Assembly: GCA_964291405.2 (NCBI GenBank)
Contig: OZ219926.1
Location: 2,464,001 to 2,528,000 of the forward strand
From: Thermodesulfobacteriota bacterium
Lineage (GTDB): Bacteria; Desulfobacterota; Binatia; Bin18
Direction: 5' to 3'
DNA length: 64,000 bases
The notes under the pieces are model-generated. The model had not been told where the DNA came from. It ran no database searches and saw only the letters and a program-made list of their open reading frames with translations. Shown here in pieces: positions 3,901 to 58,276 of the stretch; within the stretch, counting starts at the first letter, position 1; every line of letters starts with the position of its first letter. The position numbers and the translations under genes are program-made.

Positions 3901-3951
3901 AAAGAGTAAACGTGCCTAGCTTCTTTGAATTGGAGGGCACGTTTACTCTTT
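3901..3951 (-). repeat. Palindromic element copy 1 (51 bp); supplies stop codon of ORF 3943..4197
   Basis: AAAGAGTAAACGTGCC..GGCACGTTTACTCTTT arms; loop contains TCCAAT on - strand. Confidence 0.9.
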
Positions 3952-4197
3952 CTCGCCTTTCCTTCCCTTCCCCCGTATCACCAGGAGAATGAGTAGCGTG
4001 AGGGCCCATATGCCAAACAGCAGCCCACTCACGACCCAGGGGTAGAGTGGCCGGTTATTTCTTTTGGCCATGAGGCCACAGGCAATCCCGTCAAGAAAGT
4101 GAATAAAGAGCGTCGTCCCAACAAGCGCCGGAAAGGTAATGGTCTCGTCGAGGAAACGTAAGCCGGTGAAATACCCAAGAAAGACTGCGAAATCCAC
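3943..4197 (-). CDS. Small membrane protein
   Basis: 84 aa, two to three hydrophobic segments, GGGAG SD upstream. Confidence 0.7.
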   Translation of the reverse strand: MDFAVFLGYFTGLRFLDETITFPALVGTTLFIHFLDGIACGLMAKRNNRPLYPWVVSGLLFGIWALTLLILLVIRGKGRKGEKE

Positions 4198-4265
4198 ATG
4201 ATCTCCCTATTGCTGACCGGGTTGTTCCTGTCGGATTTTCCTGAACAGCATCTTACTCCCTGAGT

Positions 4266-4604
4266 ATGGACGAAGAGAAAACGGTTTTCGAGAAGCTCTA
4301 CGAGGCAAATAGAGAGAACTTTACAAATCTTGTAAAGGACCTCTTGGCACAGGGCTGCATGCACGACGTTATGGAGAAGACGTTTCGGGACACTGTTCAG
4401 GCGAGGGAAGAAGTCGCCCGCAATATGGAGGCGATACTCTCTCTGCTGAATATACCCTCCAGGACAGATTACGAGCATCTAGTGGAAAGGGTTGAAGAAG
4501 TCCAAGGCAATCTGCTCAACCTCAATATGAAGCTTGACCGTTTACTCGCGAAAAAAGACAAGACGCACCGACGTTCCACTGGTAAAAAAAAGAAGAAAAA
4601 ATAG
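4266..4604 (+). CDS. Coiled-coil protein, PhaE/phasin-like
   Basis: LSLLNIPSRTDYEHLVERVEEV resembles the LNLPTR/S-x-D/E motif of PHA granule-associated proteins; basic tail. Confidence 0.5.
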   Translation: MDEEKTVFEKLYEANRENFTNLVKDLLAQGCMHDVMEKTFRDTVQAREEVARNMEAILSLLNIPSRTDYEHLVERVEEVQGNLLNLNMKLDRLLAKKDKTHRRSTGKKKKKK

Positions 4605-4643
4605 GAAAGGCTGCAATCACCGCGTGGTGGTAAGCCCCCAATC

Positions 4644-5336
4644 ATGGCGTCGCCCATCCACACTTGGCCCGAATCTGACCGACCGCGTGAGAAACTGATC
4701 GAGCACGGGGCGGCAGCCCTCTCCAATGCAGAACTCCTTGCTATTATCCTCCGTACCGGCGATGCAAGTTCAGGACAGAGCGCGCTTGACCACGGTCGGG
4801 CGCTTGTCTCCCGTTTTGGGGACTCTTTCCGAAAACTGGAAGAGGCGAGCACGGCCGAACTGTGCGAGGTCAAAGGTATCGGGCCGGCAAAAGCCGCACA
4901 GATAAAAGCCTCATTGGAGATTGCGAAGCGCTTCTCACAAGAAGAAATTCGACGGGGCGATTCGTTTAGCTCAAGTGCTGATGTCTTCAATCACTACCGT
5001 GAACAACTCGGCAGTCTCAAAAAAGAAGAATTTCACGTGCTTCTCCTGGACGCCAAAAACCGAAAACTCAAAGACGTGCGTGTATCGGAGGGCTCTTTGA
5101 CCTCCTCCTTGGTCCACCCCCGTGAGGTTTTTCAGCCCATCATCCGCGAGTCGGCCGCGGCCGCGATCTTGGTGCATAACCACCCCAGTGGCGATCCGAT
5201 GCCGAGCCAGGAAGACCTCAAAATCACCCAGCGCCTCAGGGAGGTCGGAGAAGTGATGGGCATCCACATTCTGGACCACCTGATTATTGGCAAAGGCCGC
5301 TATATTAGTTTTGTCGATGATGGGTACTGGGATTAA
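4644..5336 (+). CDS. radC: RadC/JAB-domain protein
   Basis: DRPREKL..LSNAELLAIILRTG; HhH GIGPAKA; JAB HNHPSGDPMPSQED..LDHLIIG. Confidence 0.95.
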   Translation: MASPIHTWPESDRPREKLIEHGAAALSNAELLAIILRTGDASSGQSALDHGRALVSRFGDSFRKLEEASTAELCEVKGIGPAKAAQIKASLEIAKRFSQEEIRRGDSFSSSADVFNHYREQLGSLKKEEFHVLLLDAKNRKLKDVRVSEGSLTSSLVHPREVFQPIIRESAAAAILVHNHPSGDPMPSQEDLKITQRLREVGEVMGIHILDHLIIGKGRYISFVDDGYWD

Positions 5337-5386
5337 AGAGTAAATGTGTCCTCCAATAAACATGATGCTGGACACGTTTACTCTTT
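5335..5386 (+). repeat. Palindromic element copy 2 (52 bp), overlapping radC stop
   Basis: AAAGAGTAAATGTGTCC-TCCAATAAACATGATGCT-GGACACGTTTACTCTTT. Confidence 0.9.
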
Positions 5387-5393
5387 AGAGGCC

Positions 5394-6240
5394 ATGGGAC
5401 TCAATAGGAGCCTGCTTGGCAAGGAGTACGACCCGCAGTCGTATGTCGTCAGCGCCGAGGCAATCATGGCCTACGCGCGTGCGTATAATGAGGATAACGC
5501 TTGGTTTTTTGACGCAGACAGACCCGAAGGCATTCTTGCGCCACCGATGTTTGGTGCTGTGACAAGCTGGCTCTCGCTGATGATGGTCGTGACTGACGCC
5601 GAGCTGAATGTCGATGTCCTCCGCCTGGTTCACAGTCGGCAAGACATGCGCTTCCTCCATCCGATTGTTCCGGGAGACACTATCAACAGCACGGCACGAA
5701 TTGTCGCTGTTGAGGAGCAGCCTGGAGGGGAGTCTCTTGCCGTTGATATTGACTGTTGTAATCAGACGGGCGAGACCGTTCAGCACATCACATTTACCGC
5801 CTTTATCCGAGACCAGGGACATCGCCCCCGGAAGAGAACAGCGGCCAACGAGACTCCCGATAGCGAACCCCTGTATCGTATCTCCCAGACCATCGACGCG
5901 GATCAAACATTTCGCTATGCGAAAGCGTCAGGAGATCACAATCCCATTCACATCGATGAAAACGTCGCCAAGCTGGCAGGACTGCCGGGCATTATCGTCC
6001 ACGGCCTGTGCACCTTGGCGTTTGCATCCAAAGCCATTATTGACAGCGTATGCGAGAAAGGACCCCCGCCGCCTCAAGCGGCTCAGCGCCGGATTCGCTC
6101 GACCGGTGCTCCCCGGTCAGACGATTACCACAGCCATATGGCCGGATACAAATCCAGGCTCCTATCGATATGAGACGGTCAATCCCAACGGGCGAGCCGT
6201 CATCAAGCCCGGCTATGCGGAGATTAGAGAGGTTTTGTAG
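5394..6240 (+). CDS. Double hot-dog MaoC/PhaJ-like (R)-enoyl-CoA hydratase, +1 frameshift near 6058 (error or pseudogene)
   Basis: YAKASGDHNPIHID..GLPGIIVHGLCT in ORF 5346..6173; expected C-terminus DPRRLKRLSAGFARPVLPGQTI lies in frame of ORF 5608..6240. Confidence 0.8.
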
Positions 6241-6253
6241 AAACCTGAGGTGG

Positions 6254-6692
6254 CTAGAACGGCACGTCATCATCCGGGGGAACTGAGCCCGCCCCAGCAT
6301 CATCAAAACCGCCGCTTGGCCCGTCATCAAACGACTGCCCCGAACGTGCTCCTCCGCCGTCACGACCGCCGAGGAACGTCACGTTGCTGAGCGTTGATCT
6401 CAGTAAAATACCGTTTATTCCCTTCCCTGTCCTCGTAACTGCGTGGACGGATGGACCCCTCAATATACACTTGTCGGCCTTTGGAGAGATATTGGCCGCA
6501 CGTCTCAGCTTGTTTGCCCCACACCACAATATTGTGCCAGTCTGTGCGTTCCTGCCGGTCGCTTTCCCGGCCTGTCCAGGTCTCTGTCGTGGCCACGGTG
6601 AAACTTGCCACGGCCTGCCCACTCTGCGTGTAGCGCACCTCTGGATCTCTGCCGAGATTTCCAACAATAATCGCTTTGTTCACCGAAGCCAT
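6254..6692 (-). CDS. ssb: Single-stranded DNA-binding protein, +1 frameshift near 6386
   Basis: MASVNKAIIVGNLGRDPE..TDWHNIVVWG..TEINAQ then one extra base; NVTFLGG..DDDVPF acidic tail in other frame. Confidence 0.9.
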
Positions 6693-6847
6693 GGCGTTTC
6701 CTCCCTGTCCTGAGCCTATTGAAGGGCCTGACGGGAACCGTACCAACCCCGTCTTTTGAAGTCAATCTGACCGGCCAGAGGGGCATGGGGATTGTTGCTC
6801 TTCTCTTGCTCGCTTATATTCGTTCCCGTCTGCATGAGGAAAACATA

Positions 6848-8626
6848 ATGCTAAAGGCTCGTATTGTCCAAAGAGGAAAGCGTATTCTCTTGTTGCTGGT
6901 CGTACTCATCCCCTTTACCGGAATGGCGTATGGCGCGGATACGCCTGGCCTTGGAGAAAATTCTCCATTCGTCTCAACCTCCCGGCACGGTATGGTCGTT
7001 GCCGCGAACGCGCCAGCGAGCGAAGCCGGTGCCGCCATGCTCCGCCGGGGAGGCAATGCGGTTGATGCGGCGGTTGCCACATCCTTTGCCATCAGCGTGC
7101 TCAGGCCACAGTCAACCGGAATAGGCGGCGGCGGTTTTCTGCTGCTCTATCTGGCGAAGGAAGGAAAAACCCTGGCGATTGATTTCCGCGAGCGGGCGCC
7201 GCTCAAAGCTACCCGAGACATGTTTGTCCGGGACGGAGAAGCCGTCCCCTCCCTGAGCCGCACCGGACCGCTGGCCGTCGCCGTGCCCGGTATCGTTGCC
7301 GGACTGGTGGAGGTCCAGCAACGATACGGCAGCTTATCGCTCGCAGAGGTCATGCAACCCGCCATTCGTCTGGCAGACGAGGGATTTCCGGTCTATCCGC
7401 ATTTGGCCCGCGCCATAGCCTACCGAGCCGAGGTCTTAGGGGAATCCAACGCAACCCGTGCGGTGTATTACCGGAACGATCAACCGCTCAAACAGGACGA
7501 CCTCTTTGTCCAAAAAGACTTGGCCAATACCCTGCGGGCTATTGCCAAGGACGGTAAGGCTGCCTTCTACACCGGCCGGGTGGCAGAGGCAATTGTCACG
7601 GAAATGCAACGGATAGGCGGCTTGCTGACCCAGGAAGATTTGGATCAGTATAGCGTGATTGACCGTACGCCGGTGACGGGAACCTTCCAGGGGGCGCGCA
7701 TCTATTCCATGCCGCTGCCGAGCTCTGGAGGCATTCTGCTTGTCCAGATGCTGAATGTCTTGTCAGGATTTCCTCTGCAAAAGCTCGGATTCCAGACTCC
7801 CGGACCTACGCATATCCTGACAGAAACCATGCGCAGGGCCTTTCGTGACCGAGCCCGTTACCTGGGCGATACGGATTTTGTGTCCGTTCCCGTTGAGCGT
7901 CTCGTCTCTCCCGCATACGCAGAAGACGTACGGGCGAATATAGATGTCTCCAAAGCCACGCCCAGCCAGGGCATTCCGCAAACACCAACAGGCCGGATAG
8001 AGTCGACGAGCACGACTCATCTGTCCGTCACTGACAAAGATGGCAACGCCGTGGCCACAACCCAGACGGTGAACCTGTATTTCGGCAGTGGGGTCATGGT
8101 TCCCGGAACCGGTATTATGCTCAACGACGAGATGGACGATTTCAACGCCCAGCCCGACCATCCCAACGCCTTTGGCCTGATTGGCAATACGGACGCGAAT
8201 GCTATCGCCCCTCGGAAGACGCCACTGAGCAGCATGAGTCCAACCATTGTGGCCCGGGACGGAAAAGTCGAACTCGTAATTGGCGGACCCGGCGGGTCGC
8301 GCATAATCAGCTCGGTTCTGCAAGTCATGCTCAATGTCCTCGCCTACCAGATGTCCTTGCCGGATGCCATGTTTGCCACGCGCATTCATCATCAGTGGTA
8401 TCCGGACCGGCTGAACCTGGAAGTCCAAACGGGCAGTGAACCGAACGGGCTCATCGAAAAGCTTCAGGCTATGGGCCACACTGTGAAGGTCGTGGAATGG
8501 GGCCCCGGCAAGCGTTCCCGCTTTGGTAACATCCAGGCGATTCATGTTGACCAAGAGTCCGGACTGATAACCGGGGTCTCCGATCCCCGCGGAGAAGGAC
8601 AACCGCGCGGCCTGGACGCCGGGTAG
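6848..8626 (+). CDS. ggt: Gamma-glutamyltransferase (exported)
   Basis: Signal peptide; GGNAVDAAVA, IDFRERAP, STTHLSV nucleophile, PLSSMSPT, GGPGGSRI, SDPRGEG. Confidence 0.95.
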   Translation: MLKARIVQRGKRILLLLVVLIPFTGMAYGADTPGLGENSPFVSTSRHGMVVAANAPASEAGAAMLRRGGNAVDAAVATSFAISVLRPQSTGIGGGGFLLLYLAKEGKTLAIDFRERAPLKATRDMFVRDGEAVPSLSRTGPLAVAVPGIVAGLVEVQQRYGSLSLAEVMQPAIRLADEGFPVYPHLARAIAYRAEVLGESNATRAVYYRNDQPLKQDDLFVQKDLANTLRAIAKDGKAAFYTGRVAEAIVTEMQRIGGLLTQEDLDQYSVIDRTPVTGTFQGARIYSMPLPSSGGILLVQMLNVLSGFPLQKLGFQTPGPTHILTETMRRAFRDRARYLGDTDFVSVPVERLVSPAYAEDVRANIDVSKATPSQGIPQTPTGRIESTSTTHLSVTDKDGNAVATTQTVNLYFGSGVMVPGTGIMLNDEMDDFNAQPDHPNAFGLIGNTDANAIAPRKTPLSSMSPTIVARDGKVELVIGGPGGSRIISSVLQVMLNVLAYQMSLPDAMFATRIHHQWYPDRLNLEVQTGSEPNGLIEKLQAMGHTVKVVEWGPGKRSRFGNIQAIHVDQESGLITGVSDPRGEGQPRGLDAG

Positions 8627-8673
8627 CGGAAGGGGCTAGGATCAAGCCAGTTTCTTTGCGAAGGGAGTCTGCC

Positions 8674-24809: not shown

Positions 24810-25466
24810 TTTCTTTCTGAAAAAAAGAGCATATCTGTCTCCTTCACCAAAGGGGAGTTGGTATTTATCTACGGTCTCCTGTACGAAGCCGTCATGAGGG
24901 GAGTGATCTTCTCCTGCGGTTCCGCCGCCTTTCTTGTGGGGACCTCGCATTGCTACCGCATAGCCCCCTTTTTTCACAATCGGAAGGCAGAGGGTCAGGA
25001 AGTGAGCCATATCCCAGGTCGCCCGTGTGACAACAGTATCGAACCAAGCGGGCCTCCTATCCTGTAGAGCGAACTCTTCGGCTCTCCCTTCAAACACGCG
25101 TATATTCTCTACGCCCGTCATTCTGACTACCTGTCTCAGAAAGTTTGCTCTTTTTCTTCGGGCCTCGATGAGAAAAATCTCTCTTTTCTGCCCGGCTACG
25201 CCAAGTACCAATCCTGGAAACCCGGCTCCACTCCCAAGGTCGGCAAAAACACCCTGCCCCGGAAGAATGTACGAAAAGGCAAGAGAGTCAAGAATATGCT
25301 TTCGAATAATTGTTTTTACATCAGGCTGGCCGACGAGATTGAAGACCTGAGCCCAGCGCTGAAGTTCATCTATGTACAGGGATAGAGTGTGGAACGACTG
25401 TGGAGCAAGCGATATTCGTAACGCCCTCGTGCCCTGCTCTAAGAGAGAAAGGCTCTCTTTATCCAT
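24798..25466 (-). CDS. rsmG: 16S rRNA m7G527 methyltransferase
   Basis: KHILDSL, DLGSGAGFPG, RAEE, VTRA. Confidence 0.95.
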   Translation of the reverse strand: MDKESLSLLEQGTRALRISLAPQSFHTLSLYIDELQRWAQVFNLVGQPDVKTIIRKHILDSLAFSYILPGQGVFADLGSGAGFPGLVLGVAGQKREIFLIEARRKRANFLRQVVRMTGVENIRVFEGRAEEFALQDRRPAWFDTVVTRATWDMAHFLTLCLPIVKKGGYAVAMRGPHKKGGGTAGEDHSPHDGFVQETVDKYQLPFGEGDRYALFFRKKCFT

Positions 25467-27385
25467 TACACGGCGGCTCCCGTGCGTTTCAGGTGAATGG
25501 CCAGTAACGATACGGCTGCGGGCGTTACCCCGGGGATACGCGACGCTTGACCCAGCGAGCGGGGGCGCAAGGTCAGGAGTTTTTCTTTGACTTCGTTTGA
25601 GAGACCTTGGACATCCGTGTAATCAATCTCATTCGGAATAAGGGCCTCTTCCATATGCCGGACCCTGTTTACTCCCTCTTCCTGACGGCGTATGTAGCCA
25701 GAATACTTTACTTCTATCTCCACCTCGGCCCCAACTCCTGTGGAGAGGGGAGTGGGTGACAGGCTGATGGACTGGACATCTCCGAAGGACAGTTCAGGGC
25801 GGCGAAGCAATTTTGCAAGCGATGTCGGCGTTTTAATCTCTGCCGTACCTAAAGCCGATAATTGGGTATTCACTGTGTCGTTTGGGGTTAGTATAGTGTC
25901 CTCTAGACGTTGAACCTCCTGTGCAATTTCTTCTTTTTTCCTCAGCGTCCGCTCGGCCAATCTTCCATCTATGAGTCCGATTCTCCGTCCGAATTCGCTC
26001 AGCCTCACATCTGCATTGTCTTCCCTGAGTAACAGCCGATGCTCAGCACGAGAAGTAAACATCCGGTAGGGCTCTCCTCCTACTCCTTTCGTGACCAAAT
26101 CGTCTATAAGAACGCCAATATAGGCTTGATCTCGGGAAAAAATGAGGGGGTTATCACCTTGAACCTTCATTGTGGCGTTAATTCCGGCCATTATTCCTTG
26201 TGCCGCAGCCTCCTCATAGCCCGTTGTCCCGTTAATCTGACCGGCGAAGTAGAGGCCCGATACCAGCTTGGTTTCCAAAGTCTGCGTGAGTTGGGTCGGG
26301 TCGGCATAGTCATATTCAATGGCATAGCCGGGGCGCATGATCTCTGCATCCTCTAACCCTTGTATTGAACGGACCACGGCGAGCTGCACATCCAGTGGCA
26401 GACTTGTCGAAAGGCCATTTGGATAGACTTCGACTGTATCTCGCCCTTCTGGTTCGAGAAAAATCTGGTGACGAGGTTTCTCCTTAAAACGAATGACTTT
26501 ATCCTCAATCGATGGACAATAACGCGGCCCTCTGCCTTCAATCACACCGGAATACAGGGGTGAGCGGTCAAGTCCTGCGGCAATGGTCTGGTGCGTTTTC
26601 TCATTCGTATACGTCATATGACACGGCAATTGTTCCTGGGTGATTGCCTCCGTTGAAAAGGATAAGGCCGGTGGAGGGGTATCCCCGTACTGTGGCTCCA
26701 AAATGTCATAATTGATCGTTCGATTGTCCAAGCGCGGACAGGTGCCGGTTTTGAGCCGACCAATATGAAAACCAAGTTCGCTCAGATGGCTGCTTAATCC
26801 TTCAACGGCAAAGTCCCCCGCTCGTCCTGCTGCGTAATTTTTAAGGCCAACGTGTATGAGACCCTTGAGAAAGGTTCCGGTCGTCAGAATAACGGTCTGT
26901 GCTGAGAAGGACTCACCTATCTGAGTGATCACTCCTCTGACTCTGCTGTTCTGAAGAGGAAACGTGTCCAGCATATCATGTCTATTGGAGGAAACGTTTC
27001 CTCTTTCAACCCTGAGGCGTTCCACACTGCCCTGGCGCAGGGTGAGATTGGGCGTGGTTTCAACCACTCTCTTCATACGCTGCCGATAGAGGGCCTTGTC
27101 CGCTTGCGCACGCGTCGCGCGAACGGCCGGCCCTTTGCGTGTGTTCAAGACACGGAACTGAATGCCTGTCTCATCAATGGCGCGGGCCATTTCCCCACCA
27201 AGCGCATCAATCTCCCGCACCAAATGGCTTTTGCCCATCCCTCCAATAGCCGGATTGCATGACATCTGACCGATGTGATCAAGGTTCAGCGTCAGCATCA
27301 GAGTCTTACTGCCAAGACGTGCCGCCGCCAGAGCCGCCTCGATCCCGGCATGGCCAGCGCCAACAACGATAACATCATAGTCCAT
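25466..27385 (-). CDS. mnmG: tRNA modification enzyme MnmG/GidA with 18-aa repeat-derived insertion
   Basis: [42 protein letters not shown]. Confidence 0.98.
26953..27006 (-). repeat. Palindromic element copy 3 (54 bp), in-frame inside mnmG
   Basis: AAAGAGGAAACGTTTCC-TCCAATAGACATGATATGCT-GGACACGTTTCCTCTTC encodes (E)[17 protein letters not shown]. Confidence 0.92.
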
Positions 27386-27395
27386 GGGTCTTCAC

Positions 27396-28847
27396 CTATT
27401 TCCCGATACAGAAATCTTGAAACACGCGGTCGAGTATCTCCTCGCTGCTGACCTGGCCCGTTATTGCGCCAATATGGTCAAGGCTTGCGCGAAGATCAAC
27501 AGCGATCAGGTCAAGGGGGAGGCCTGCCGCCAACCCCTGCTCTGCACCCTTTAGGCTTTCCACAGCTTTTTCAAGGGCAACTTTATGCCGTATTTTCGTA
27601 ATCATAACACCCCTATACGGACCTTCGCCTTCCCCTCCAGGTTGCTGCTTCCCCAGAGCGACCTCTTGTATTCTGTCTCCCAAGTCGTCAACCCCAGTCC
27701 CGTACAGCGCAGCCATGTGAAGAAGAGGAAACGTGTCAATAGCCTTGTATGATTTGGAGGGCACGCTTCCTCTTTGAGGCGCTTCAGTATCCAGACGGTC
27801 TAACAGATCGGTCACATCAAATTTCTGAGGGAGATCACTCTTATTCCCCACCAGGACAAACTTCTTTCCTTGAATCTTTTCACAGATGAGAGCGTCATCC
27901 GCATCGAACGGTCGGGAGAGGTCGAAAAGTGCTAAAATAATCTCTGCTTGTTCAATGCTGGACAGGCTGCGCTCAATGCCGATCTTCTCAATCTCATCCG
28001 TTGTCCGACGAATCCCAGCGGTGTCCCGCACGACGAGGGGAATCTCGTTCACGAGCACGGATTCCTCGAGCACATCTCGTGTCGTCCCAGGGACCTGGGT
28101 GACAATGGCTCGCTCTGTGTCTGCCAGCAGGTTGAGCAGGCTCGACTTACCGACATTCGGCTTCCCAATAATAGCGGTCACGATCCCGTCGCGATAGACT
28201 TTTCCTTGGGAGAAGGTCGCTGCGAGGGCCTCTATATCGATCCGAATTGAAGAGAAAGCTGAGCTGAGCTCCTTTTGGTTGTGTTCAGGGATATCGTCTT
28301 CAGGGAAATCGATAAACGCTTCCAGGTAGGCCGTCTGGGTAATGAGGCGGTCCCGAATGGCCGAGCACGCCTGGGAGAGTCGGCCTGATAAATCCCTCCA
28401 GGCAAGATGTAAGCCCGTCTCATTATTCGCGTGAATGAGGTCGAGTACAGCCTCAGCCTGTATGAGATCGAGGCGACCGTTGAGAAATGCACGTTTTGTA
28501 AACTCACCTGGCTGGGCGGGACGAGCCCCCTGATTGAGGATCGCTTCCAATATCCGACGAGTCAGGAAACTGCCGCCATGGAGATGTAGCTCAGCGATGT
28601 GTTCCCCAGTATAGCTGTGAGGGGAGCGCATCAGGATCAGGCCGGCGTGGTCAATTGGCTGGCCGTTCGGCTGATCCAGAATCTTGCCAAGATAGAAATG
28701 GTGGGAATGGAGTTTTTCCCAAGACGGCCGGGGGAGAAAAAGCTGTCTAACTATTCTTTCTGCGTCCGCGCCACTGACTCGGATAACGGCGATCCCGCCC
28801 TGGCCTGAGGGAGTCGCAATAGCAGCAATCGTATCATGCTCGTACAC
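27396..28847 (-). CDS. mnmE: tRNA modification GTPase MnmE with 18-aa repeat-derived insertion
   Basis: DTIAAIATP, GKPNVGKSS, GTTRD, DTAG, NKSD, FCIGK. Confidence 0.98.
   Translation of the reverse strand: MYEHDTIAAIATPSGQGGIAVIRVSGADAERIVRQLFLPRPSWEKLHSHHFYLGKILDQPNGQPIDHAGLILMRSPHSYTGEHIAELHLHGGSFLTRRILEAILNQGARPAQPGEFTKRAFLNGRLDLIQAEAVLDLIHANNETGLHLAWRDLSGRLSQACSAIRDRLITQTAYLEAFIDFPEDDIPEHNQKELSSAFSSIRIDIEALAATFSQGKVYRDGIVTAIIGKPNVGKSSLLNLLADTERAIVTQVPGTTRDVLEESVLVNEIPLVVRDTAGIRRTTDEIEKIGIERSLSSIEQAEIILALFDLSRPFDADDALICEKIQGKKFVLVGNKSDLPQKFDVTDLLDRLDTEAPQRGSVPSKSYKAIDTFPLLHMAALYGTGVDDLGDRIQEVALGKQQPGGEGEGPYRGVMITKIRHKVALEKAVESLKGAEQGLAAGLPLDLIAVDLRASLDHIGAITGQVSSEEILDRVFQDFCIGK
27722..27775 (-). 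repeat. Palindromic element copy 4 (54 bp), in-frame inside mnmE
   Basis: AAAGAGGAAGCGTGCCC-TCCAAATCATACAAGGCTAT-TGACACGTTTCCTCTTC encodes (Q)RGSVPSKSYKAIDTFPL. Confidence 0.9.
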
Positions 28848-28855
28848 AACTCTTC

Positions 28856-28908
28856 AAAGAGTAAACATGTCCTCCAATAGATACAAGTTGTTGACACGTT
28901 TACTCTTT
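28856..28908 (+). repeat. Palindromic element copy 5 (53 bp), jag-mnmE intergenic
   Basis: AAAGAGTAAACATGTCC-TCCAATAGATACAAGTTGT-TGACACGTTTACTCTTT. Confidence 0.9.
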
Positions 28909-28918
28909 ATGCCACGGG

Positions 28919-29713
28919 TCACGAGCGAGCCGCCCGCCGGTCTCGATCCCGACGAGGACTGCCGGTTTCCTCAGGAACAATAGAGAGACGACGGAAATAC
29001 CCACGCCCCATGCTTTTTGTCACAACAAGCGGGTCGTCTTCGAGCACCAAATGGACGACACGACGGTCTCGAGGACTCAGCGGATTCAGGGTAACCGTTT
29101 TTCGTCGCCGCTTCGCCCGCTCGCTCAAACGAAGGGCCAAGCTTTCAAGACTCTGGCGGCGACGTTCACGATAGCCCTCGGCGTCCAAGATGATATGCGC
29201 CTCTTCCTCTTCTCCACGGGCGACCATGCGGTTGAGAAGATATTCGAGGGCATCAAGCGTTTGCCCCTTCCGTCCAATGAGTAAGCCATCGACGGTATCT
29301 TCAAGATTAATAACGGCTTCTGTCCCTTGGACGTCGAGTGAGACGGGGGCCTCTACACCCATAAGACGTAGGGTTTCTGAGAGTATCTGACGGGCATTTT
29401 CTCTTGTCTCCTTGGAAACGGGAACGGGCTGGACGACTGATTCTCCAGAAGGAGCACGACGTCGCGCTGTTCTCCCTCTCTCCTGAGGAGATTCATCAAT
29501 ACTGGCCGGAGCCGCAGATGCAGGCTCCTGAACCGAAACAGGATTTCTCAACGTCGCTCGGACGCGCGCCTTCCTCCCGCCAATACCGAGGAAACCCTTT
29601 GTAGCCTGAGCGAGGACTTCTATTTCCACCTGCTCTCTGTCTGCTTGGAGTTGGGTTAGGGCTGCTGCAACCGCCGCTTCTATAGTCGATCCTTCCGCTT
29701 CAATTGCACTCAT
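28919..29713 (-). CDS. jag: Jag/EloR/KhpB RNA-binding protein
   Basis: Jag_N KGFLGIG, KH GLLIGRKGQTLDAL, R3H RRVVH. Confidence 0.93.
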   Translation of the reverse strand: MSAIEAEGSTIEAAVAAALTQLQADREQVEIEVLAQATKGFLGIGGRKARVRATLRNPVSVQEPASAAPASIDESPQERGRTARRRAPSGESVVQPVPVSKETRENARQILSETLRLMGVEAPVSLDVQGTEAVINLEDTVDGLLIGRKGQTLDALEYLLNRMVARGEEEEAHIILDAEGYRERRRQSLESLALRLSERAKRRRKTVTLNPLSPRDRRVVHLVLEDDPLVVTKSMGRGYFRRLSIVPEETGSPRRDRDRRAARS

Positions 29714-29731: not shown

Positions 29732-29785
29732 AAAGAGTAAACGCGTCCTCCAATAACATGCAGATGCTGGACACGTTTACTCTTT
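29732..29785 (+). repeat. Palindromic element copy 6 (54 bp), yidC-jag intergenic
   Basis: AAAGAGTAAACGCGTCC-TCCAATAACATGCAGATGCT-GGACACGTTTACTCTTT. Confidence 0.9.
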
Positions 29786-33390: not shown

Positions 33391-34209
33391 TTAATGTGGA
33401 CGCCAGCCGATGACGCTGAGCTGGCGACCGGCTTGCGCTCCTTCTCTTCGGTACGAGGTAAACTCATCTGGATGGCAGAATGTACAGGGTCCAACGCTGT
33501 GAATCTGCGTCTGCGGGACGCCAGCCTGAATCAACTGCATGCGGTTTAGCGCCCGCAGGTCGAGATAGCCCTTGTCTCCCTGCCGATTCCAGGTCGTAGG
33601 CCGTCCATCTCCCCAGCGTTCAAAGAGTGGCTCTCCTACCTCAGAGCCGACTTGATAACAGCATCCCCCAATTGACGGACCCAAGGCGACCCAGAGCTGG
33701 GTGGGGGAAACGTCCCATTGTTCGGCGCATATTTCGACTGCTCGGAGGGCGATTGCCTTCTGCGTACCTCTCCATCCAGCGTGAAGAGCGCCAAGAAGAG
33801 GAAGCGTGTCCAGCTTTTTGTATCTGTTGGAGGACACGTTTCCTCTTTCGCCCCTTTTGTGTGGGGCAACAAGGAGAAGCGGTACGCAATCCGCAGTCTT
33901 GATGCCAAGCAGCACGTTTTGCTCCGTTGTGAGCATCCCGTCTGCTTCTAACCCCGGTTTTGTTTCCCCTCCTTCAATATGCACGATGGTATTCCCATGA
34001 ACCTGTGTGAGGGTATGGAGTGGACAGTCCGGGGCGCCCAAAGAAGCGTCTAATGAAGCTGCTGTGAAGGATTTTGGTAAGCGGCGGGAAAAACCATGGA
34101 TCAGACCAGGAAACGCGCTCCACGCCTCGGCTCGAATCCAGAGCTCCCGCCTGGACGGTTCTTTTGGGTTTGGAGCCGATTTAGGCAGAACTCTTCCCTC
34201 CCTTCTCAA
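33391..34209 (-). CDS. pgeF: PgeF/YfiH family peptidoglycan editing factor with 18-aa repeat-derived insertion (start uncertain)
   Basis: QVHG, TADCVP, HAGWRG, GPSIGGCCY, SYRR. Confidence 0.9.
   Translation of the reverse strand: MRREGRVLPKSAPNPKEPSRRELWIRAEAWSAFPGLIHGFSRRLPKSFTAASLDASLGAPDCPLHTLTQVHGNTIVHIEGGETKPGLEADGMLTTEQNVLLGIKTADCVPLLLVAPHKRGERGNVSSNRYKKLDTLPLLGALHAGWRGTQKAIALRAVEICAEQWDVSPTQLWVALGPSIGGCCYQVGSEVGEPLFERWGDGRPTTWNRQGDKGYLDLRALNRMQLIQAGVPQTQIHSVGPCTFCHPDEFTSYRREGAQAGRQLSVIGWRPH
33795..33848 (-). repeat. Palindromic element copy 7 (54 bp), in-frame inside pgeF
   Basis: AAAGAGGAAACGTGTCC-TCCAACAGATACAAAAAGCT-GGACACGCTTCCTCTTC encodes (E)[17 protein letters not shown]. Confidence 0.92.
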
Positions 34210-35509
34210 TAAGGGCGAGCGTTTCAATCTGGTCTGTTTGCGGAAACATATCGAATGGCTGGACCCGTCCGACGGCATAGCCAGCGTCGGTAAAACGATC
34301 AAGGTCTCGGGCGAGCGTCCGGGGCGAACAGGAGATATAGAGCAGTTTGGGCGCGTTCACTCCTATGACCGAGGAAAACGCCTCGGGGCTCAGTCCTGTC
34401 CGAGGCGGGTTGAGCACAATCCTGTCGATGGATGGGAGGGTGATAGCGATCTCTTCTATCTTCTGCGCTGCATCACCATGAAAGAAACGGGTGTTGTGGT
34501 ATCCGTTACGCCGGGCATTTTCTTTTGCAACATTCACGGCCCGTTCATTTTCCTCAATCCCGACCACAAACTTGGTCTGCGAGGCACAATACAGGGCGAT
34601 AGGACCGATTCCGCAGTACACGTCAAGAACGATTTCTTGTCCGGTCATATTGCTCCACCGGACAGCGGTTTCGTAAATGCGCTTCGCCATAGGTGGATTG
34701 ACCTGAGAAAAAGTATCCACCGGGATACTGAGGCGGACATGCCCTATTTGTTCGAGTAAAGAGTCCCGACCCCGCAAGGGGCGGAAGCGTTTCCCCCAGA
34801 TCACATTGCCCGGCTGGTCGTTGATATTATGGACAATGCCACTCAAAAAGGGAAACCGTCGTTCAAGCTGACGGGTCAAGTCGTGCACCTGGGGGAAGTG
34901 CATATGCCGGGTGACCAGCAGCAGGAGCGCTTTCCGCTGCCAAAAACTATAGCGCAGGTCGATATAGCGGAGTTGGCCGGTATCGCGCGCTTCGTCATAG
35001 GGAATAATATGCAGCCGTTCTATCGCCTGTTTGAGAAAGGCGACGATGCGGTTGACTTCTTTGGGGTGGACGGGACAAGCCGAGATGTCAAAAACCTGAT
35101 GTGTTTCAGGGACATACAGACCGATCAGGGTTTGTCCCTTGGCGCTCTGCACGGCCAGCTTAACGCGGGAGCGGTAGCCAAACTTTTTGGGCGAAGCAAC
35201 AGGCAGGGGAATATTGATCGCCCTGAGCGACGGAAATACGGCAAACGCCTCCCGCACTATGGTTTGTTTTCTTTCAAGCTGTTGATCATAGGGAACGGAG
35301 ACGAAGGGGCAGCCGTAACAGTGGGGCGCATGCGGACAGGGCGGCTTCCAGTCAGGCTTGTCGCCTGAATGGCTGTTTGGGCGCGACAACCCTGAGTTCG
35401 CCTTCTTTTTTCTGTACTGATTGTCCGGCTTTGGGACTTGGCGGGGACGCTGAGAGCCGGCGTGTCTTTTTCGAGATGTGGACGGCCGCGAGGGTTTATG
35501 TTCGGACAC
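34181..35509 (-). CDS. rlmD: 23S rRNA m5U methyltransferase RlmD-like (no obvious TRAM domain)
   Basis: CPHAPHCYGC, FSQVN, DVYCGIG, NPPRTG, YISCS, DMFPQT. Confidence 0.88.
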   Translation of the reverse strand: MSEHKPSRPSTSRKRHAGSQRPRQVPKPDNQYRKKKANSGLSRPNSHSGDKPDWKPPCPHAPHCYGCPFVSVPYDQQLERKQTIVREAFAVFPSLRAINIPLPVASPKKFGYRSRVKLAVQSAKGQTLIGLYVPETHQVFDISACPVHPKEVNRIVAFLKQAIERLHIIPYDEARDTGQLRYIDLRYSFWQRKALLLLVTRHMHFPQVHDLTRQLERRFPFLSGIVHNINDQPGNVIWGKRFRPLRGRDSLLEQIGHVRLSIPVDTFSQVNPPMAKRIYETAVRWSNMTGQEIVLDVYCGIGPIALYCASQTKFVVGIEENERAVNVAKENARRNGYHNTRFFHGDAAQKIEEIAITLPSIDRIVLNPPRTGLSPEAFSSVIGVNAPKLLYISCSPRTLARDLDRFTDAGYAVGRVQPFDMFPQTDQIETLALIEKGGKSSA

Positions 35510-54716: not shown

Positions 54717-54995
54717 ACTGTCCTCCCTTTCGCGATGTATTCTCTCCTCTGGACATGGCATACCTTTGCGGACTTTGTCCAGTGGAAACGCATGAATCTT
54801 AGCTGCTGAGTTCTCCTCGCTCGGCTTTAGAGAAGAAGCCATCTTAGAAACTTATACCATATAGATGGTCAAGTAGAATGTCAAAAAAACAAAATATCTG
54901 TGAAAAAATAGTTTGATATGTAAAAAAATTAAGTTTATATAATTACTTATAGATCTACTTGGCTGTCAAGTAATACGTCAAATAGCAAGTCAAAT

Positions 54996-56186
54996 ATGGA
55001 CTGGGAAAAATTTACTTTTGAGTATCGGCTCGACACCAACAATCTTTTTGGCAACCTTGTCTCAATTGAGGCTTTTAAGGAAGCCTCTCTGAACTTGGTG
55101 TTTCCGTCCGAATGGCAGCACCAACTCGACGGCTTGAATCGAATCCGTGCTGTTCGTGGGACTACGGCTATAGAAGGTAATCCGCTCTCCGAGGCAGAAG
55201 TTGCCCAACAAATGGAATACCTTGAGCAAGGGTCTAGTGATGATAGAAGGACCGCCACTAAAGAACAATTGCAGATCAGAAACGCTGGCGAGGCTCAGTC
55301 TTGGGTGAGAGAGCGGTTCCTTCCCGACAAACCACCAATTTGTTTGGAAGATATTTGTAAGCTTCACGAGATGGTTACGCGCGATTCGGATACCAGAAAC
55401 AACATACCAGGGAGATTTCGCACATTTCCGGTGACAGTCGGAACCGCGGATCTTGGCGGAGTCCATAGGGGTGCCCCCCATACGGACCTCCTCCGTCTAA
55501 TGGAAGAGTATGTTCGTTTTATCAATACGCGAAGGCTTGAAGAGACTCATCCAGTCATTCGAGCTCTGCTTGCTCATTTTTTCTTGGTTACGATTCATCC
55601 GTTTGGGGACGGAAACGGAAGGGTCTCCCGACTCGTCGAAGCCGGTTTGCTTTTTCAACTCGGATATAACGTCCACGGATTCTATGGATTGTCAAATTAC
55701 TTCTATCGGAACGTACAGGAATACATGGCCGTCCTCCAGAAAAGTCGGGAAAGCCAACCTTTTGACGTGACACCATTTATTCGCTTTGGCGTGGATGGCT
55801 TTGCGAGTGAGTTGAAAGGAATAAACAATTTCATCAAGGCTCGGATCAATCGGCTCGTATATCGAACAATGCTGACGCGTGCTTTCAATAAGAAGATGGG
55901 TGCACGACGACGACTCCTCAACCAAAGAGAATATGCTTTCCTCGACTTTCTGTTGAGTGAAACGGAGCCTTCAGATCCGTTCTCTGACACCCCTTCCCGA
56001 AGGATCACATTATCAGAGCTATTGGAGGCGAGTTATGTTCGTGCCGCGTATCAAAATGTCACCAAGCGAACTTTCCAGAGAGAACTGATAAGGCTAGGGG
56101 AACTTGAGTTTATTAGATTCACGAGGGATATGTCCGTACAGGATTGGATCGTAGAGTTGAATTTTGAAGCAATTTCAAAATACTAA
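54996..56186 (+). CDS. Fic-domain protein
   Basis: TAIEGN; Fic motif HPFGDGNGRVSR; AT-rich upstream region. Confidence 0.9.
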   Translation: MDWEKFTFEYRLDTNNLFGNLVSIEAFKEASLNLVFPSEWQHQLDGLNRIRAVRGTTAIEGNPLSEAEVAQQMEYLEQGSSDDRRTATKEQLQIRNAGEAQSWVRERFLPDKPPICLEDICKLHEMVTRDSDTRNNIPGRFRTFPVTVGTADLGGVHRGAPHTDLLRLMEEYVRFINTRRLEETHPVIRALLAHFFLVTIHPFGDGNGRVSRLVEAGLLFQLGYNVHGFYGLSNYFYRNVQEYMAVLQKSRESQPFDVTPFIRFGVDGFASELKGINNFIKARINRLVYRTMLTRAFNKKMGARRRLLNQREYAFLDFLLSETEPSDPFSDTPSRRITLSELLEASYVRAAYQNVTKRTFQRELIRLGELEFIRFTRDMSVQDWIVELNFEAISKY

Positions 56187-56229
56187 ATAACTAGATTCAA
56201 CTCTCGCTGTATTCAAAAGGAGTCTTGCC

Positions 56230-57384
56230 ATGCCACTGTCCCACATCCGCGTGATTGACCTGACCCGAGCCCGTGCCGGACCGACCTGTGTGCGCCAGTT
56301 GGCCGATATGGGCGCTCAGGTGATAAAAATCGAGCAGCCCCAAGACGATGGCGAATGGGGCCGGCACGGCTTTGATTTTCAAAATCTGCACCGTAATAAG
56401 CGCTGCATGGTGCTCAATCTGAAGGACGAGCGTGGCAAGCGGATTCTGAAACAGCTCGTCAAAAAATCAGACGTGTTGGTGGAGAATTATCGGCCGAATG
56501 TCAAAAAACGTCTTGGTATAGACTACGAATCGCTCAGGCCGCTGAATCCGCGTCTCGTCTACGCCAGCATATCCGGTTTTGGACAGACCGGGCCATATAA
56601 AGATCGCCCTGGCTATGACCAGGTTGCCCAGGGAATGGGAGGGCTGATGAGCGTTACCGGGCAGCCCGGAGGCGGTCCGGTCCGTGCTGGGATTCCGGTG
56701 GCCGACCTGAGCGCCGGGCTGCTGGCCGCCCAGGGTATTTTGGTTGCCCTCCTCGAACGCGAACGGTCCGGCGAAGGCCAGTGGATCCACACCTCACTGC
56801 TGGAAGCCATGGTTGCCATGCTGGACTTTCAGGCCACGCGCTGGCTCATGGGTAAAGAAGTGCCGCCCCAGGCTGGCAATAATCATCCAACCGTGATTCC
56901 TACCGGAACCTTCAAGGTCAAGGACGGCCATATCAATATTGCTACCACCAACCACATGTGGAAGCGGCTGTGTGCAGTACTGGGTGATACCGCCCTGGCC
57001 GAAGACGAACGGTTTTCCTCTCCGGGCAGGCGCTCGAAAAACCGGGATGCGCTGACCCCCATTCTTGAAGAGAAACTCAAAGACCGCACTGTGGACGAAT
57101 GGATTGATACGCTGAATGCGGCTGGCATTCCGTGCGGCCCTATCCTGTCTATTGATAAGGTTTTTGACAATGAACAGGTCCGGCACCTTGGGCTCGCGCA
57201 TGCGGTTGAACACCCAGAGCTTGGGCCTATCCAGATTCTTGGCCTGCCGGTGACGCTGAGTCGGACCCCAGCCAGCATTCGCACGCCGACTGCGGAGAGA
57301 GGCCAGCATACGGACGAAATTTTGAGAGAGCTGGGGGTAGATGAGGCAGAGATCGGGCAGCTTCGCAAAGACGCGGTGATCTAA
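56230..57384 (+). CDS. Family III (CaiB/BaiF) CoA-transferase
   Basis: LADMGAQVIKIE, RNKR, DVLVENYRP, SISGFGQTGP, GQHTDEIL. Confidence 0.93.
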   Translation: MPLSHIRVIDLTRARAGPTCVRQLADMGAQVIKIEQPQDDGEWGRHGFDFQNLHRNKRCMVLNLKDERGKRILKQLVKKSDVLVENYRPNVKKRLGIDYESLRPLNPRLVYASISGFGQTGPYKDRPGYDQVAQGMGGLMSVTGQPGGGPVRAGIPVADLSAGLLAAQGILVALLERERSGEGQWIHTSLLEAMVAMLDFQATRWLMGKEVPPQAGNNHPTVIPTGTFKVKDGHINIATTNHMWKRLCAVLGDTALAEDERFSSPGRRSKNRDALTPILEEKLKDRTVDEWIDTLNAAGIPCGPILSIDKVFDNEQVRHLGLAHAVEHPELGPIQILGLPVTLSRTPASIRTPTAERGQHTDEILRELGVDEAEIGQLRKDAVI

Positions 57385-57393
57385 TCCGTTGTC

Positions 57394-57633
57394 CTACTTA
57401 AAGGCGTGAAAGGTCAGGATGGTGAACGTCTCCCGCACGTGAGGGATCTTCTGGATCTGCTCGGTCACCAAATGTGACAGGTCTTCAAAGTCATCGACAT
57501 ATAACTTGACCAACAGGTCATAGGCTCCCGAGATGGAATACGCCTCAGAGAAGCTTTCCAAATCGGTCACCCGGTCTGCGACCTCGGCCAAGGTACCCGG
57601 TTCAACTTTCATCATTAAGAAGACAGCGCGCAT
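57394..57633 (-). CDS. Stand-alone Lrp/AsnC ligand-binding (RAM) domain
   Basis: AYSISGAYDLLVK..IPHVRETFT. Confidence 0.85.
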   Translation of the reverse strand: MRAVFLMMKVEPGTLAEVADRVTDLESFSEAYSISGAYDLLVKLYVDDFEDLSHLVTEQIQKIPHVRETFTILTFHAFK

Positions 57634-57727
57634 AGCCTTTCTCCCGATAGTGGCCGTCGGTCATGAAAATTGTACCAGGCGAGGCCGCTGAACTACGCCC
57701 CGCCTGGATTCCTTCACACTCTTTGGC

Positions 57728-58159
57728 TTACTGCATGTCGCCCATCAGGTCGAAATGCACTGTGCGGTGTGCGAAAAGCCAGCGATCGCCTTGTTTGACA
57801 AGCCGGTCCTCATAACGACCGGCAATACCGTTGACTAACGCACTCTCGCCTTTGGAGCGGACCACGACGATATAGCTCTTTGCGGTCGCCTGTTCTCCAT
57901 CGACTTTGATGATTTCGTTCATCACACAATGCTTGAGCATGGGCGCACCGTCTTTCATCGCCATCCGACCGGGAACTGTATCAACAAAAGCCCGCAGTGC
58001 CTCTTTGCCCGTATGCACACCGGCGACCTCTCCACCGTCAAAGACGCCATCCTCAGTGAACAAATCGACCCACTGGTTAAACTCGCCACCATCAAAATGA
58101 TAGCAATAGTTTGCGATCGTCTCGTGAATCGCGTCCTTTTCTTCGAGTATAGATGCCAT
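57728..58159 (-). CDS. SnoaL-like/NTF2 family protein
   Basis: IHETIANYCYHFD..LFTEDG..GRYEDRLV..WLF. Confidence 0.85.
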   Translation of the reverse strand: MASILEEKDAIHETIANYCYHFDGGEFNQWVDLFTEDGVFDGGEVAGVHTGKEALRAFVDTVPGRMAMKDGAPMLKHCVMNEIIKVDGEQATAKSYIVVVRSKGESALVNGIAGRYEDRLVKQGDRWLFAHRTVHFDLMGDMQ

Positions 58160-58221
58160 AGCGCACCTCCTTCTGTTGTTTTATTCGTGTGTCTCGTCGG
58201 CTCTGGTCAGCTTCCGTCCCC

Positions 58222-58276
58222 AAAGAGTAGATGTGTCCATCCCGTCTCCAGTGAGCAAGCGGGACATGTTTACTCT
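58222..58276. repeat. Palindromic element copy 8 (diverged loop); supplies stop of ORF 58270
   Basis: AAAGAGTAGATGTGTCC..GGACATGTTTACTCT. Confidence 0.7.

What the first reader, a model, noticed from the sequence alone, without database searches (positions are those of the whole stretch)
3901..58276. Palindromic ~54-bp repeat family that writes an 18-aa peptide into housekeeping proteins (RPE-like)
Seen: 8 copies of AAAGAG(T/G)AAACGTGTCC-TCCAA..-GGACACGTTT(A/C)CTCTT(T/C) at 3901, 5335, 26953, 27722, 28856, 29732, 33795 and 58222. Intergenic copies vary in length (51-55 bp). The three copies inside mnmG, mnmE and pgeF are all exactly 54 bp, in the same orientation and reading frame: [51 protein letters not shown]. 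Known: Rickettsia palindromic elements insert in-frame into surface loops of conserved proteins. Inference: this is an independent, much shorter element doing the same in an unrelated lineage. At this density the genome could hold hundreds of copies. I do not recognise it as a described family.
Basis: partly seen in the sequence, partly recalled or inferred. Interest (0 to 1): 0.9.

Follow-up and report, generated by a model that had tools for sequence, protein, structure and literature searches.

The report
54-bp hairpin repeat inserted in genes
A small selfish DNA hairpin has spread to about 150 places in the genome of an uncultured sponge- and coral-associated bacterium, and where it landed inside genes it adds a harmless-looking 18-amino-acid loop to essential proteins, much as known palindromic repeats do in Rickettsia.

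Summary
All 8 copies lie at the stated coordinates. The family has about 157 copies in this 4.95-Mb Candidatus Binatia genome.

The unit is 54 bp: a 17-bp stem and an asymmetric loop of about 20 nt. It was found in 17 of 24 other species of the same genus. It was found in 0 of 16 other genera of the order/class and 0 of 120 genomes sampled across the phylum.

Orthologue alignments show clean gaps: 54 bp in mnmG and pgeF, and 48-54 bp in mnmE. Filled and empty alleles both occur among close species, and none of 5 clean junctions has a target-site duplication.

Genome-wide, about 18 internal coding copies use all three frames and both orientations. A further 22 genes end at the element's own TAA.

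No parent insertion sequence was found, and Y1/RAYT, IS110 and TnpB genes do not track the element.

Verdict: a real, undescribed mobile palindromic repeat that behaves like RPEs and intragenic REPs. Such in-frame "decoration", including of DNA-repair genes, is already in print (PMC3733652, PMC10969869). It is therefore a new variant of a known kind, and how it moves is unresolved.

The parts
3901..3951 (-). Repeat copy, 51 bp, T-A subfamily, downstream of ORF 3087-3902
   Evidence: nhmmer E 4.4e-14
5335..5386 (+). Repeat copy, 52 bp, at the 3' end of radC (4644-5336). The radC stop codon TAA is formed by a flanking T plus the element's first two A
26953..27006 (-). Repeat copy, 54 bp, G-C subfamily, in frame inside mnmG (residues about 127-144, [18 protein letters not shown])
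25466..27385 (-). mnmG (GIDA), host gene, 639 aa against 620-621 aa in empty-site relatives
27722..27775 (-). Repeat copy, 54 bp, G-C subfamily, in frame inside the mnmE G domain, in the variable loop between NKxD and the following strand
27396..28847 (-). mnmE (TrmE_N, MMR_HSR1, MnmE_helical), host gene
28856..28908 (+). Repeat copy, 53 bp, intergenic between jag and mnmE. Filled or empty in different species
29732..29785 (+). Repeat copy, 54 bp, intergenic between yidC and jag. Present in most relatives
33795..33848 (-). Repeat copy, 54 bp, G-C subfamily, in frame inside the pgeF/YfiH-family gene, between the DCVP strand and the HAGWRG motif
33391..34302 (-). pgeF/YfiH-family gene (Pfam Cu-oxidase_4), host gene. 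The true start is probably downstream of the first TTG
58222..58277 (+). Degenerate repeat copy, 56 bp, with a divergent loop

Best explanation
This is a non-autonomous, selfish DNA hairpin element. It is 54 bp long: 17-bp inverted arms AAAGAG(T/G)AAACGTGTCC around an oriented loop of about 20 nt that begins TCCAAT and ends GCT. It multiplied in the ancestor of part of one sponge/coral-associated Candidatus Binatia genus. Filled and empty alleles still differ between species.

Shown: it is inserted as an exact 54-bp unit without duplicating the target.

Inferred: it is moved in trans by an enzyme that acts on the hairpin, in a mode that leaves no target duplication, as HUH-type single-strand transposition does. 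That enzyme is not identified.

The unit is 18 codons long, and 3 to 5 of its 6 reading frames are open. Insertions into loops of proteins therefore survive as 18-aa peptides. Insertions near a gene's end in phase 0 simply end the protein at the arm's TAA. The peptides are most likely tolerated passengers, not functional modules.

The confidence given is for the reading as a mobile selfish hairpin repeat with tolerated in-frame insertions. The specific single-strand, hairpin-recognising mode of movement I would put at only about 0.3.
For: Family and structure:
- About 157 copies. The conserved core spans exactly 54 positions, and the flanks are not conserved.
- 93.9% of stem cells pair. 7 of 17 pairs show changes on both sides, and 0 of 500 shuffles reach the observed value.
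- As single-stranded DNA the hairpins fold at -8.7 to -13.6 kcal/mol, z -3.1 to -6.6.

Mobility:
- Occupancy of six sites around mnmE/mnmG differs among 17 related loci.
- One relative (L002) has two extra copies inside mnmG that differ from each other at one base.
- The pgeF site is filled in 8 of 23 genus genomes.
- A metagenome-derived contig skips exactly 33795-33848.

No target duplication at 5 clean junctions: pgeF, mnmG, the two extra L002 copies, and jag-mnmE in L058 against L025.

Narrow range: 17 of 24 other species in the genus, 0 of 16 other genera, 0 of 120 genomes in a phylum sample, and 0 viral contigs for an exact pattern.

Tolerance in proteins:
- The AlphaFold model of MnmG has mean pLDDT 89.7. 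Its only long low-confidence stretch, 132-143, lies inside the insert, between strands 121-127 and 147-154.
- Alignments to solved structures show gaps of 18, 18 and 12 residues at the inserts in MnmG, YlmD/PgeF and MnmE.
- 10 copies in 9 genes are spanned or bracketed by Pfam domains.
- Of 36 genes whose 3' end overlaps a copy, 22 stop at the element's TAA.
Against: - No mobilising enzyme was found. There are no arms in an IS-like arrangement in this genome: only 13 solo arms turned up, and a laxer 12-nt scan gave one 2.4-kb candidate pair that proved to enclose two convergent ordinary ORFs.
- Y1/RAYT genes occur in 13 of 28 genus genomes and do not track the element. IS110 occurs in 1 of 28. 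TnpB occurs in 8 of 28 and not in this genome.
- The copies are old. The median pairwise difference is 15 of 54 bases, and there is only one identical pair. Current activity in this genome is not shown.
- Stems are 90% conserved and loops 65%. That could mean selection for a host function and not only for mobility.
- Patchy occupancy is partly due to recombination between species. The jag-mnmE deletion allele is shared by relatives in a way that conflicts with the locus tree. Apparent precise losses therefore need not be excisions.
- The coding/intergenic tallies rest on my own crude gene caller.
Confidence: 0.7

Rival explanations
1. It is a REP/REPIN-type element mobilised by a RAYT (Y1 HUH) transposase, that is, an ordinary member of the REP world.
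For: It is a hairpin repeat that inserts without target duplication. Intragenic REPs, many in repair genes, are documented (PMC3733652). The genome holds one Y1_Tnp gene.
Against: That Y1 gene lies 15 kb from the nearest copy. It is flanked by a different, G+C-rich repeat. Y1 genes are absent from element-rich genomes G002, G004, G006, G010, G011, G015 and G022, and present in element-free G008, G016, G020 and G024. The consensus has no terminal GTAG or CGTC tag. The stem is 17 bp, against 5-13 bp in Table 1 of PMC3733652.
Confidence: 0.12
2. It is a classical MITE: an internally deleted derivative of a DDE-type insertion sequence, moved by cut-and-paste with target duplication.
For: It has terminal inverted repeats, small size, many copies, no coding capacity and a patchy distribution within a genus.
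Against: None of 5 clean filled/empty junctions has a duplication. No longer element carries the arms. At 54 bp it is well below the sizes quoted for the MITE families I read about: 150-400 bp for the Coxiella QMITEs (PMC5896051) and about 150 bp for RPEs (PMC10969869).
Confidence: 0.08
3. It is mainly a host-selected functional hairpin, such as a regulatory, RNA-stabilising or protein-binding site. The coding copies are by-products.
For: Stems are more conserved than loops, and compensatory changes occur. The loop edges TCCAAT and GCT are conserved. Many copies sit within about 100 nt of gene ends. Orthologous copies are retained across species.
Against: Copies lie inside essential genes in all frames. 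Intergenic copies show no orientation bias relative to transcription: 29 same against 25 opposite in tandem contexts. Copies are under-represented between convergent genes: 5 of 84, where about 12 are expected from intergenic length. Element-free species exist in the same genus. There is no Rfam match.
Confidence: 0.1

Closest known systems
Rickettsia palindromic elements (RPEs)
   Same: Both are palindromic dispersed repeats of a host-associated bacterium that insert in frame into unrelated housekeeping genes and add a peptide compatible with the fold. This follows the review PMC10969869 (passages read). Claverie and Ogata's surface-loop argument is recalled, not read.
   Different: RPEs are about 100-150 bp and occur in Rickettsia. 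According to PMC3733652 the short R. conorii forms end in CGTC. This element is 54 bp, has no such tag, and is confined to part of one Binatia genus. Only about 11% of its copies are internal to genes, whereas the review says nearly half of the RPEs of three families are. Sequence relatedness was not tested, because no RPE sequence was at hand.
Intragenic GTAG/CGTC REPs (Di Nocera, De Gregorio and Rocco 2013, PMC3733652)
   Same: Both are short stem-loop repeats, mostly intergenic, with a minority inside ORFs encoding 20-30 aa. Many sit in uvrA, uvrB, recBCD and polymerase genes, and the CGTC type lacks a dedicated transposase. Here the hosts include a UvrA-like protein, an AddB-like nuclease and Mfd, and copies lie just upstream of uvrC and at the end of radC.
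   Different: This element has no GTAG or CGTC tag. Its stem is 17 bp against 5-13 bp. It occurs as single units, not head-to-head dimers, and shows no RAYT association. Additional file 3 of that paper, which lists the intragenic REPs, is an old .xls and I did not try to open it.
Bacterial MITEs that overlap gene ends (for example QMITE1/QMITE2 of Coxiella burnetii, PMC5896051)
   Same: Both have copies that supply C-terminal residues and stop codons to functional genes. Both show uneven chromosomal distribution with deserts, and neither has an identified transposase. Here 30 of 36 3'-overlapping genes stop in the element or at its junction, and deserts are seen.
   Different: QMITEs are 150-400 bp and have direct repeats of 2-11 nt. 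This element is 54 bp and has none.
IS200/IS605-derived hairpin elements (PATEs, REPINs)
   Same: Both insert without target duplication and rely on a DNA hairpin (recalled knowledge of the family; the junctions are).
   Different: No TnpA or TnpB partner tracks the element. It has a single symmetric hairpin, not distinct left and right ends. No conserved target motif lies next to the copies.

Membership tests
Rickettsia palindromic elements (RPE) | Length about 100-150 bp and occurrence in Rickettsia | tested here: not met
   The unit is 54 bp. It was found only in one Binatia genus. The RPE size is from PMC10969869.
Rickettsia palindromic elements (RPE) | In-frame insertion into conserved proteins at positions that leave the fold intact | tested here: met
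   Clean gaps of 16-18 aa in MnmG, MnmE and PgeF against orthologues and solved structures. The MnmG insert is a low-confidence loop at a beta-hairpin tip in an otherwise confident model.
Rickettsia palindromic elements (RPE) | Sequence similarity to an RPE family consensus | not tested
   No RPE sequence was available from a tool. Rfam gave no match of any kind.
REP / REPIN (RAYT-associated) | Terminal GTAG (or CGTC) tetranucleotide | tested here: not met
   The consensus AAAGAGTAAACGTGTCC...GGACACGTTTACTCTTT has neither tag at its ends. The criterion is from PMC3733652.
REP / REPIN (RAYT-associated) | A RAYT gene flanked by the repeats, or co-occurring with them | tested here: not met
   The one Y1 gene is not flanked by copies. 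PF01797 presence does not track the element in 28 genus genomes.
MITE | Terminal inverted repeats, small size, no coding capacity, multiple copies | tested here: met
   17-bp arms, 54 bp, about 157 copies.
MITE | Target-site duplication flanking each copy | tested here: not met
   5 of 5 clean filled/empty junctions lack one. The flanking positions of 157 copies show no repeated bases.
MITE | A parent insertion sequence with the same ends | tested here: not met
   This genome has 13 solo arms, none in an IS-like pair. The one 2.4-kb candidate pair encloses two convergent ordinary ORFs. Other genomes of the genus were not scanned for this.
IS200/IS605-derived non-autonomous elements | No target duplication, and insertion next to a fixed short target motif | tested here: inconclusive
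   There is no duplication. No conserved flanking motif is seen either.
IS200/IS605-derived non-autonomous elements | TnpA (Y1) and/or TnpB present in genomes where the element is active | tested here: not met
   both are absent from several complete, element-rich genomes.

The most novel reading that the evidence does not exclude
The element is a transposase-orphan hairpin transposon of a new mechanistic type. It would be inserted as an exact 54-nt unit without target duplication, by a host or genus-specific enzyme that is not a Y1, IS110 or TnpB protein. Its design would be adapted to living inside genes: exactly 18 codons, up to five open frames, and arms that carry TAA to cap an interrupted gene. 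Its repeated presence in repair genes (UvrA-like, AddB-like, Mfd) would then not be chance but would modulate repair in a symbiont.
Probability: 0.12. Interest if true: 0.8.

Novelty: new variant of a known kind. Interest (0 to 1): 0.5.

Why it matters
It extends in-frame "protein decoration" by palindromic repeats to an uncultured phylum (Binatota) and to an animal-associated lineage. It does so with a very small unit of 18 codons. Close relatives with filled and empty sites give natural with/without pairs for MnmG, MnmE, PgeF, AlaRS, MiaB-like and Mfd.

The absence of both target duplication and any candidate transposase makes the genus a reasonable place to look for how REP-like hairpins without a RAYT are moved. 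PMC3733652 leaves that question open for CGTC REPs.

On the practical side, the repeat breaks short-read assemblies at its copies. Its stop codons and ATG-containing loop can also mislead gene callers.

Tried and rejected
- Parent IS. A scan for the 17-nt arm with up to 3 mismatches gave 309 hits, of which 296 lie inside known copies and 13 are solo, none paired. A 12-nt terminal scan gave one pair 2372 nt apart. It encloses two convergent ordinary ORFs and was rejected.
- Transposase profiles across 28 genus genomes showed no correlation: PF01797, PF01548 and PF07282. Other families (DDE types, Y2, serine) were not tested.
- Replication-strand bias. GC skew and gene-strand walks were too weak to place the origin, so I make no claim about orientation relative to replication or about enrichment near the origin.
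- The AlphaFold model of PgeF, built from 21 genus sequences, was poor (mean pLDDT 45). I use it only for the order of strands.
- Stem decay in coding copies. There is no difference: 15.6 against 15.9 paired positions of 17, p 0.18.
- Precise excision. The L002/L005 mnmE alleles and the L005 mnmG allele look like exact or 1-nt-shifted 54-nt removals. Because allele sharing conflicts with the locus tree, recombination explains them equally well, and I do not claim excision.
- RNA evidence. Contigs from two RNA libraries cover parts of the region. One spans the mnmE insert and one spans the pgeF insert, but DNA carry-over cannot be excluded, and the mnmG insert was not covered.
- An exact-pattern scan of viral contigs found nothing. 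Metagenome contigs were not scanned.
Full report
**Observation.**
The arm core is far more frequent than chance: 15 matches against 3.78 expected, and 0 of 100 shuffles reach 15. The window is G000:C3:2464001-2528000 of a 4.95-Mb, 3-contig genome with 57.8% G+C.

A profile built from the eight copies and iterated over the genome converged on 171 loci at E<1, 157 at E<1e-3 and 150 at E<1e-6, all on the main contig. The start and end of that contig duplicate each other at about 98-99% identity, an assembly overlap. No copy lies in the duplicated part, so the count is not inflated.

**Anatomy.**
Position counts over 157 copies show conservation from AAAGAG to CTCTTT, exactly 54 model positions. 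The bases just outside are unconserved.

| Length (bp) | 54 | 55 | 56 | 53 | 57 | 51 | 52 | 48 | 30 |
|---|---|---|---|---|---|---|---|---|---|
| Copies | 87 | 35 | 10 | 8 | 7 | 5 | 3 | 1 | 1 |

- The 17-bp arms pair in 93.9% of cells in a 26-copy alignment. 7 of 17 pairs show changes on both sides, and no shuffle or slid control comes close.
- Stem position 7 covaries with its partner as T-A (97 copies) or G-C (41), with 19 others. This marks two subfamilies.
- The loop is oriented: it begins TCCAAT and ends GCT, with a variable centre. 152 of 157 loops are distinct.
- Stems are 90% identical to the consensus and loops 65%. The median pairwise difference among the 87 copies of 54 bp is 15 bases, with one identical pair. 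The family in this genome is therefore old.
- As single-stranded DNA the copies fold at -8.7 to -13.6 kcal/mol, z -3.1 to -6.6.
- Rfam has no matching family.

**Host and range.**
MnmG relatives name the organism as an uncultured Candidatus Binatia bacterium. Public runs that hold the stretch are mostly labelled sponge or coral metagenomes.

A covariance model of the element matched 17 of 24 other species of the genus. Three had only 2, 22 and 26 matches, and seven had none. It matched 0 of 16 genomes from other genera of the order/class and 0 of 120 other genomes drawn across the phylum. An exact pattern found nothing in viral contigs.

**The three coding copies.**

*MnmG.* Protein and DNA alignments show an 18-aa, 54-bp block in the window and in five relatives. 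17 others, Binatia and non-Binatia, show a clean gap, and one (L004) holds a remnant. The empty site GTTG|AGAACAGC becomes GTTG[AAAGAGG...CCTCTTC]AGAACAGC.

*PgeF.* The site GGGGCG|TTGGCG is filled by exactly 54 bp in 8 of 23 genus genomes and empty in 15.

*MnmE.* The block is +48 nt against most empty alleles and +54 against two. It lies in a length-variable loop of the G domain.

Alignments to solved structures show gaps at the same places:
- 18 residues against E. coli MnmG (3cp2)
- 18 residues against YlmD (6t0y/1t8h), between the DCVP strand and the HAGWRG motif
- 12 residues against MnmE (3geh)

The AlphaFold model of MnmG, built from 41 sequences, has mean pLDDT 89.7. Its only long low-confidence segment, 132-143, lies inside the insert, between strands 121-127 and 147-154. 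The PgeF model was too poor to use beyond strand order.

**Mobility and junctions.**
Around mnmE/mnmG, site occupancy differs from species to species. One relative (L002) has two further copies inside mnmG that differ from each other at a single base. They were inserted at CATCCA|CTCCCC and TCACCT|GAAACG as 54-nt units. At jag-mnmE, L058 differs from its sister L025 by exactly 54 nt. None of these five clean junctions has a target duplication.

In-frame decay also occurs. L004 keeps 13 nt of the mnmG copy (net +12) and 6 nt at one L002 site. A 22-bp mini-palindrome at C3:2812971-2812992 looks like an internally deleted copy.

Some alleles look like exact removals: mnmE in L002 and L005, and mnmG in L005 with a 1-nt shift. 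However, the distribution of a 65-nt jag-mnmE deletion allele conflicts with the locus tree. Recombination between species is therefore shuffling these alleles, and excision cannot be claimed.

A contig from a coral RNA library, from a relative 90-95% alike, skips exactly 33795-33848. Other contigs in that library span the pgeF and mnmE inserts without a gap. This is weak support for read-through, because DNA may be present in such libraries.

**Genome-wide relation to genes.**
No gene finder was available. I scored ORFs with a codon log-odds model trained on long ORFs, which gave 4587 calls covering 87.9% of the genome. These tallies are approximate.

| Class of copy (of 157) | Number |
|---|---|
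| Intergenic | 84 |
| Overlapping a gene end | 49 (36 at the 3' end, 13 at the 5' end) |
| Inside a called gene | 24 |

After inspection I class 18 copies as truly internal.
- 15 are sense (6 in phase 1, 8 in phase 2, 1 in phase 0) and 3 are antisense.
- 10 of them, in 9 genes, are spanned or bracketed by Pfam domains. The genes are mnmG, mnmE, pgeF, a 1938-aa UvrA-like protein, a HEAT protein, alanyl-tRNA synthetase, a MiaB-like enzyme (two copies), Mfd and an FAD monooxygenase.
- Other hosts are an AddB-like nuclease, an APH-family kinase, a histidine kinase, a PMT_2 glycosyltransferase and a TolC-like protein. Three ORFs have no bracketing support: two have no Pfam match at all, and one has only a distant domain.
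- Copies in front of murC-, uvrC-, acyl-CoA dehydrogenase- and mgtE-like genes lie upstream of the first domain. They are probably in leaders.

The consensus T-A subfamily is open in 3 of 6 frames. The G-C subfamily with the CAGACAAAAAAG loop is open in 5 of 6 (read from the consensus). G-C copies are enriched among internal copies, 9 of 18 against 32 of 139, Fisher p 0.022.

Copies that overlap coding sequence are mostly sense (43 against 17). Intergenic copies between tandem genes are not (29 against 25). Only 5 of 84 intergenic copies lie between convergent genes, where about 12 are expected from intergenic length, so these are not terminators.

Of the 36 genes whose 3' end overlaps a copy, 22 stop at the arm's TAA (AAA GAG TAA). 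Ten more stop at a codon formed at the junction. In three cases the former stop codon follows the element directly.

The distribution along the chromosome is uneven. 71 of 157 copies lie between 2.2 and 3.0 Mb, and several 200-kb bins are empty.

**How it moves.**
Not resolved.
- No long element carries the arms.
- The single Y1 transposase gene is 15 kb from any copy and is flanked by a different repeat.
- Y1 (13 of 28 genus genomes), IS110 (1 of 28) and TnpB (8 of 28, with 22 matches in one genome) do not follow the element's distribution.
- Insertion without target duplication and dependence on a hairpin point to a single-strand or hairpin-recognising enzyme acting in trans. That step is inference.

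**Comparison with what is known.**
- The review PMC10969869 (passages read) describes RPEs of about 150 bp that make in-frame fusions at unusual frequency.
- PMC3733652 (abstract and passages read) describes GTAG- and CGTC-tagged REPs inside ORFs in several species. Many are in uvrA, uvrB, recBCD and polymerase genes, and the CGTC type has no dedicated transposase. I did not try to open its Additional file 3, an old .xls.
- PMC5896051 (passages read) describes Coxiella MITEs that supply C-terminal residues and stops.

The present element shares these behaviours. It fails the defining features of each family that I could test: size and host for RPE, tag and RAYT for REP, duplication and parent IS for MITE.

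Three searches found no paper describing a repeat family in Binatia or Binatota: Binatota/Binatia with palindromic/repeat; RPE/in-frame/MITE/coding; and sponge/symbiont/MITE/Binatota.

**Verdict.**
This is a real, well-defined, previously undescribed repeat family that acts like RPEs and intragenic REPs. It is new as a variant: 54 bp, 18 codons, no target duplication, no partner enzyme, and arms that carry stop codons. It is not new in kind.

Noticed in passing
G000:C3:980603-983833 (locus L072): The genome's only Y1 (IS200-like/RAYT-like) transposase gene appears split over two frames. It is flanked on both sides by a different, G+C-rich repeat that translates to ...GWQPALPGG... in antisense ORFs. 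This looks like a separate REP-like family with its own RAYT.
   Followed up: partly
G000:C3:1-29551 and 4860337-4895696: The two ends of the main contig duplicate each other at about 98-99.6% identity over some 30 kb. This is probably an unresolved circular overlap or strain heterogeneity in the assembly.
   Followed up: no
G000:C3:2812971-2812992 (L092:501-522): A 22-bp perfect mini-palindrome made of the outer 11 nt of each arm sits upstream of a gene. It looks like a copy that lost its inner stem and loop.
   Followed up: partly
G000:C3, 200-kb bins: The repeat is very unevenly spread. 71 of 157 copies lie between 2.2 and 3.0 Mb, the region that holds rnpA-yidC-mnmE-mnmG-parAB. None lie in 0.2-0.6, 1.4-1.6 or 4.4-4.6 Mb. 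GC skew and gene-strand bias were too weak to say whether the peak is at the replication origin.
   Followed up: partly
L026:3001-4881 (mnmG of a related species): At the same beta-hairpin of MnmG this species carries an unrelated 21-nt insertion encoding 7 aa. The hairpin tip seems to tolerate insertions in general.
   Followed up: no
window 28847-28919 and loci L001-L020: A 65-nt deletion allele of the jag-mnmE spacer is shared by the window's nearest relatives but not by the window itself. This conflicts with the locus tree and points to homologous recombination between species.
   Followed up: partly
G006 (same genus), whole genome: One species has 22 matches to the TnpB zinc-ribbon domain (PF07282). 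Most relatives, including this genome, have none. This looks like a lineage-specific TnpB expansion.
   Followed up: no
L109-L112 (G006, G015, G018, G011), upstream end of pgeF: These species lack the internal pgeF copy. They carry another copy at the rlmD-pgeF junction, which reads as MQKSKRVLQSDKKAG... at the start of the longest pgeF ORF.
   Followed up: no
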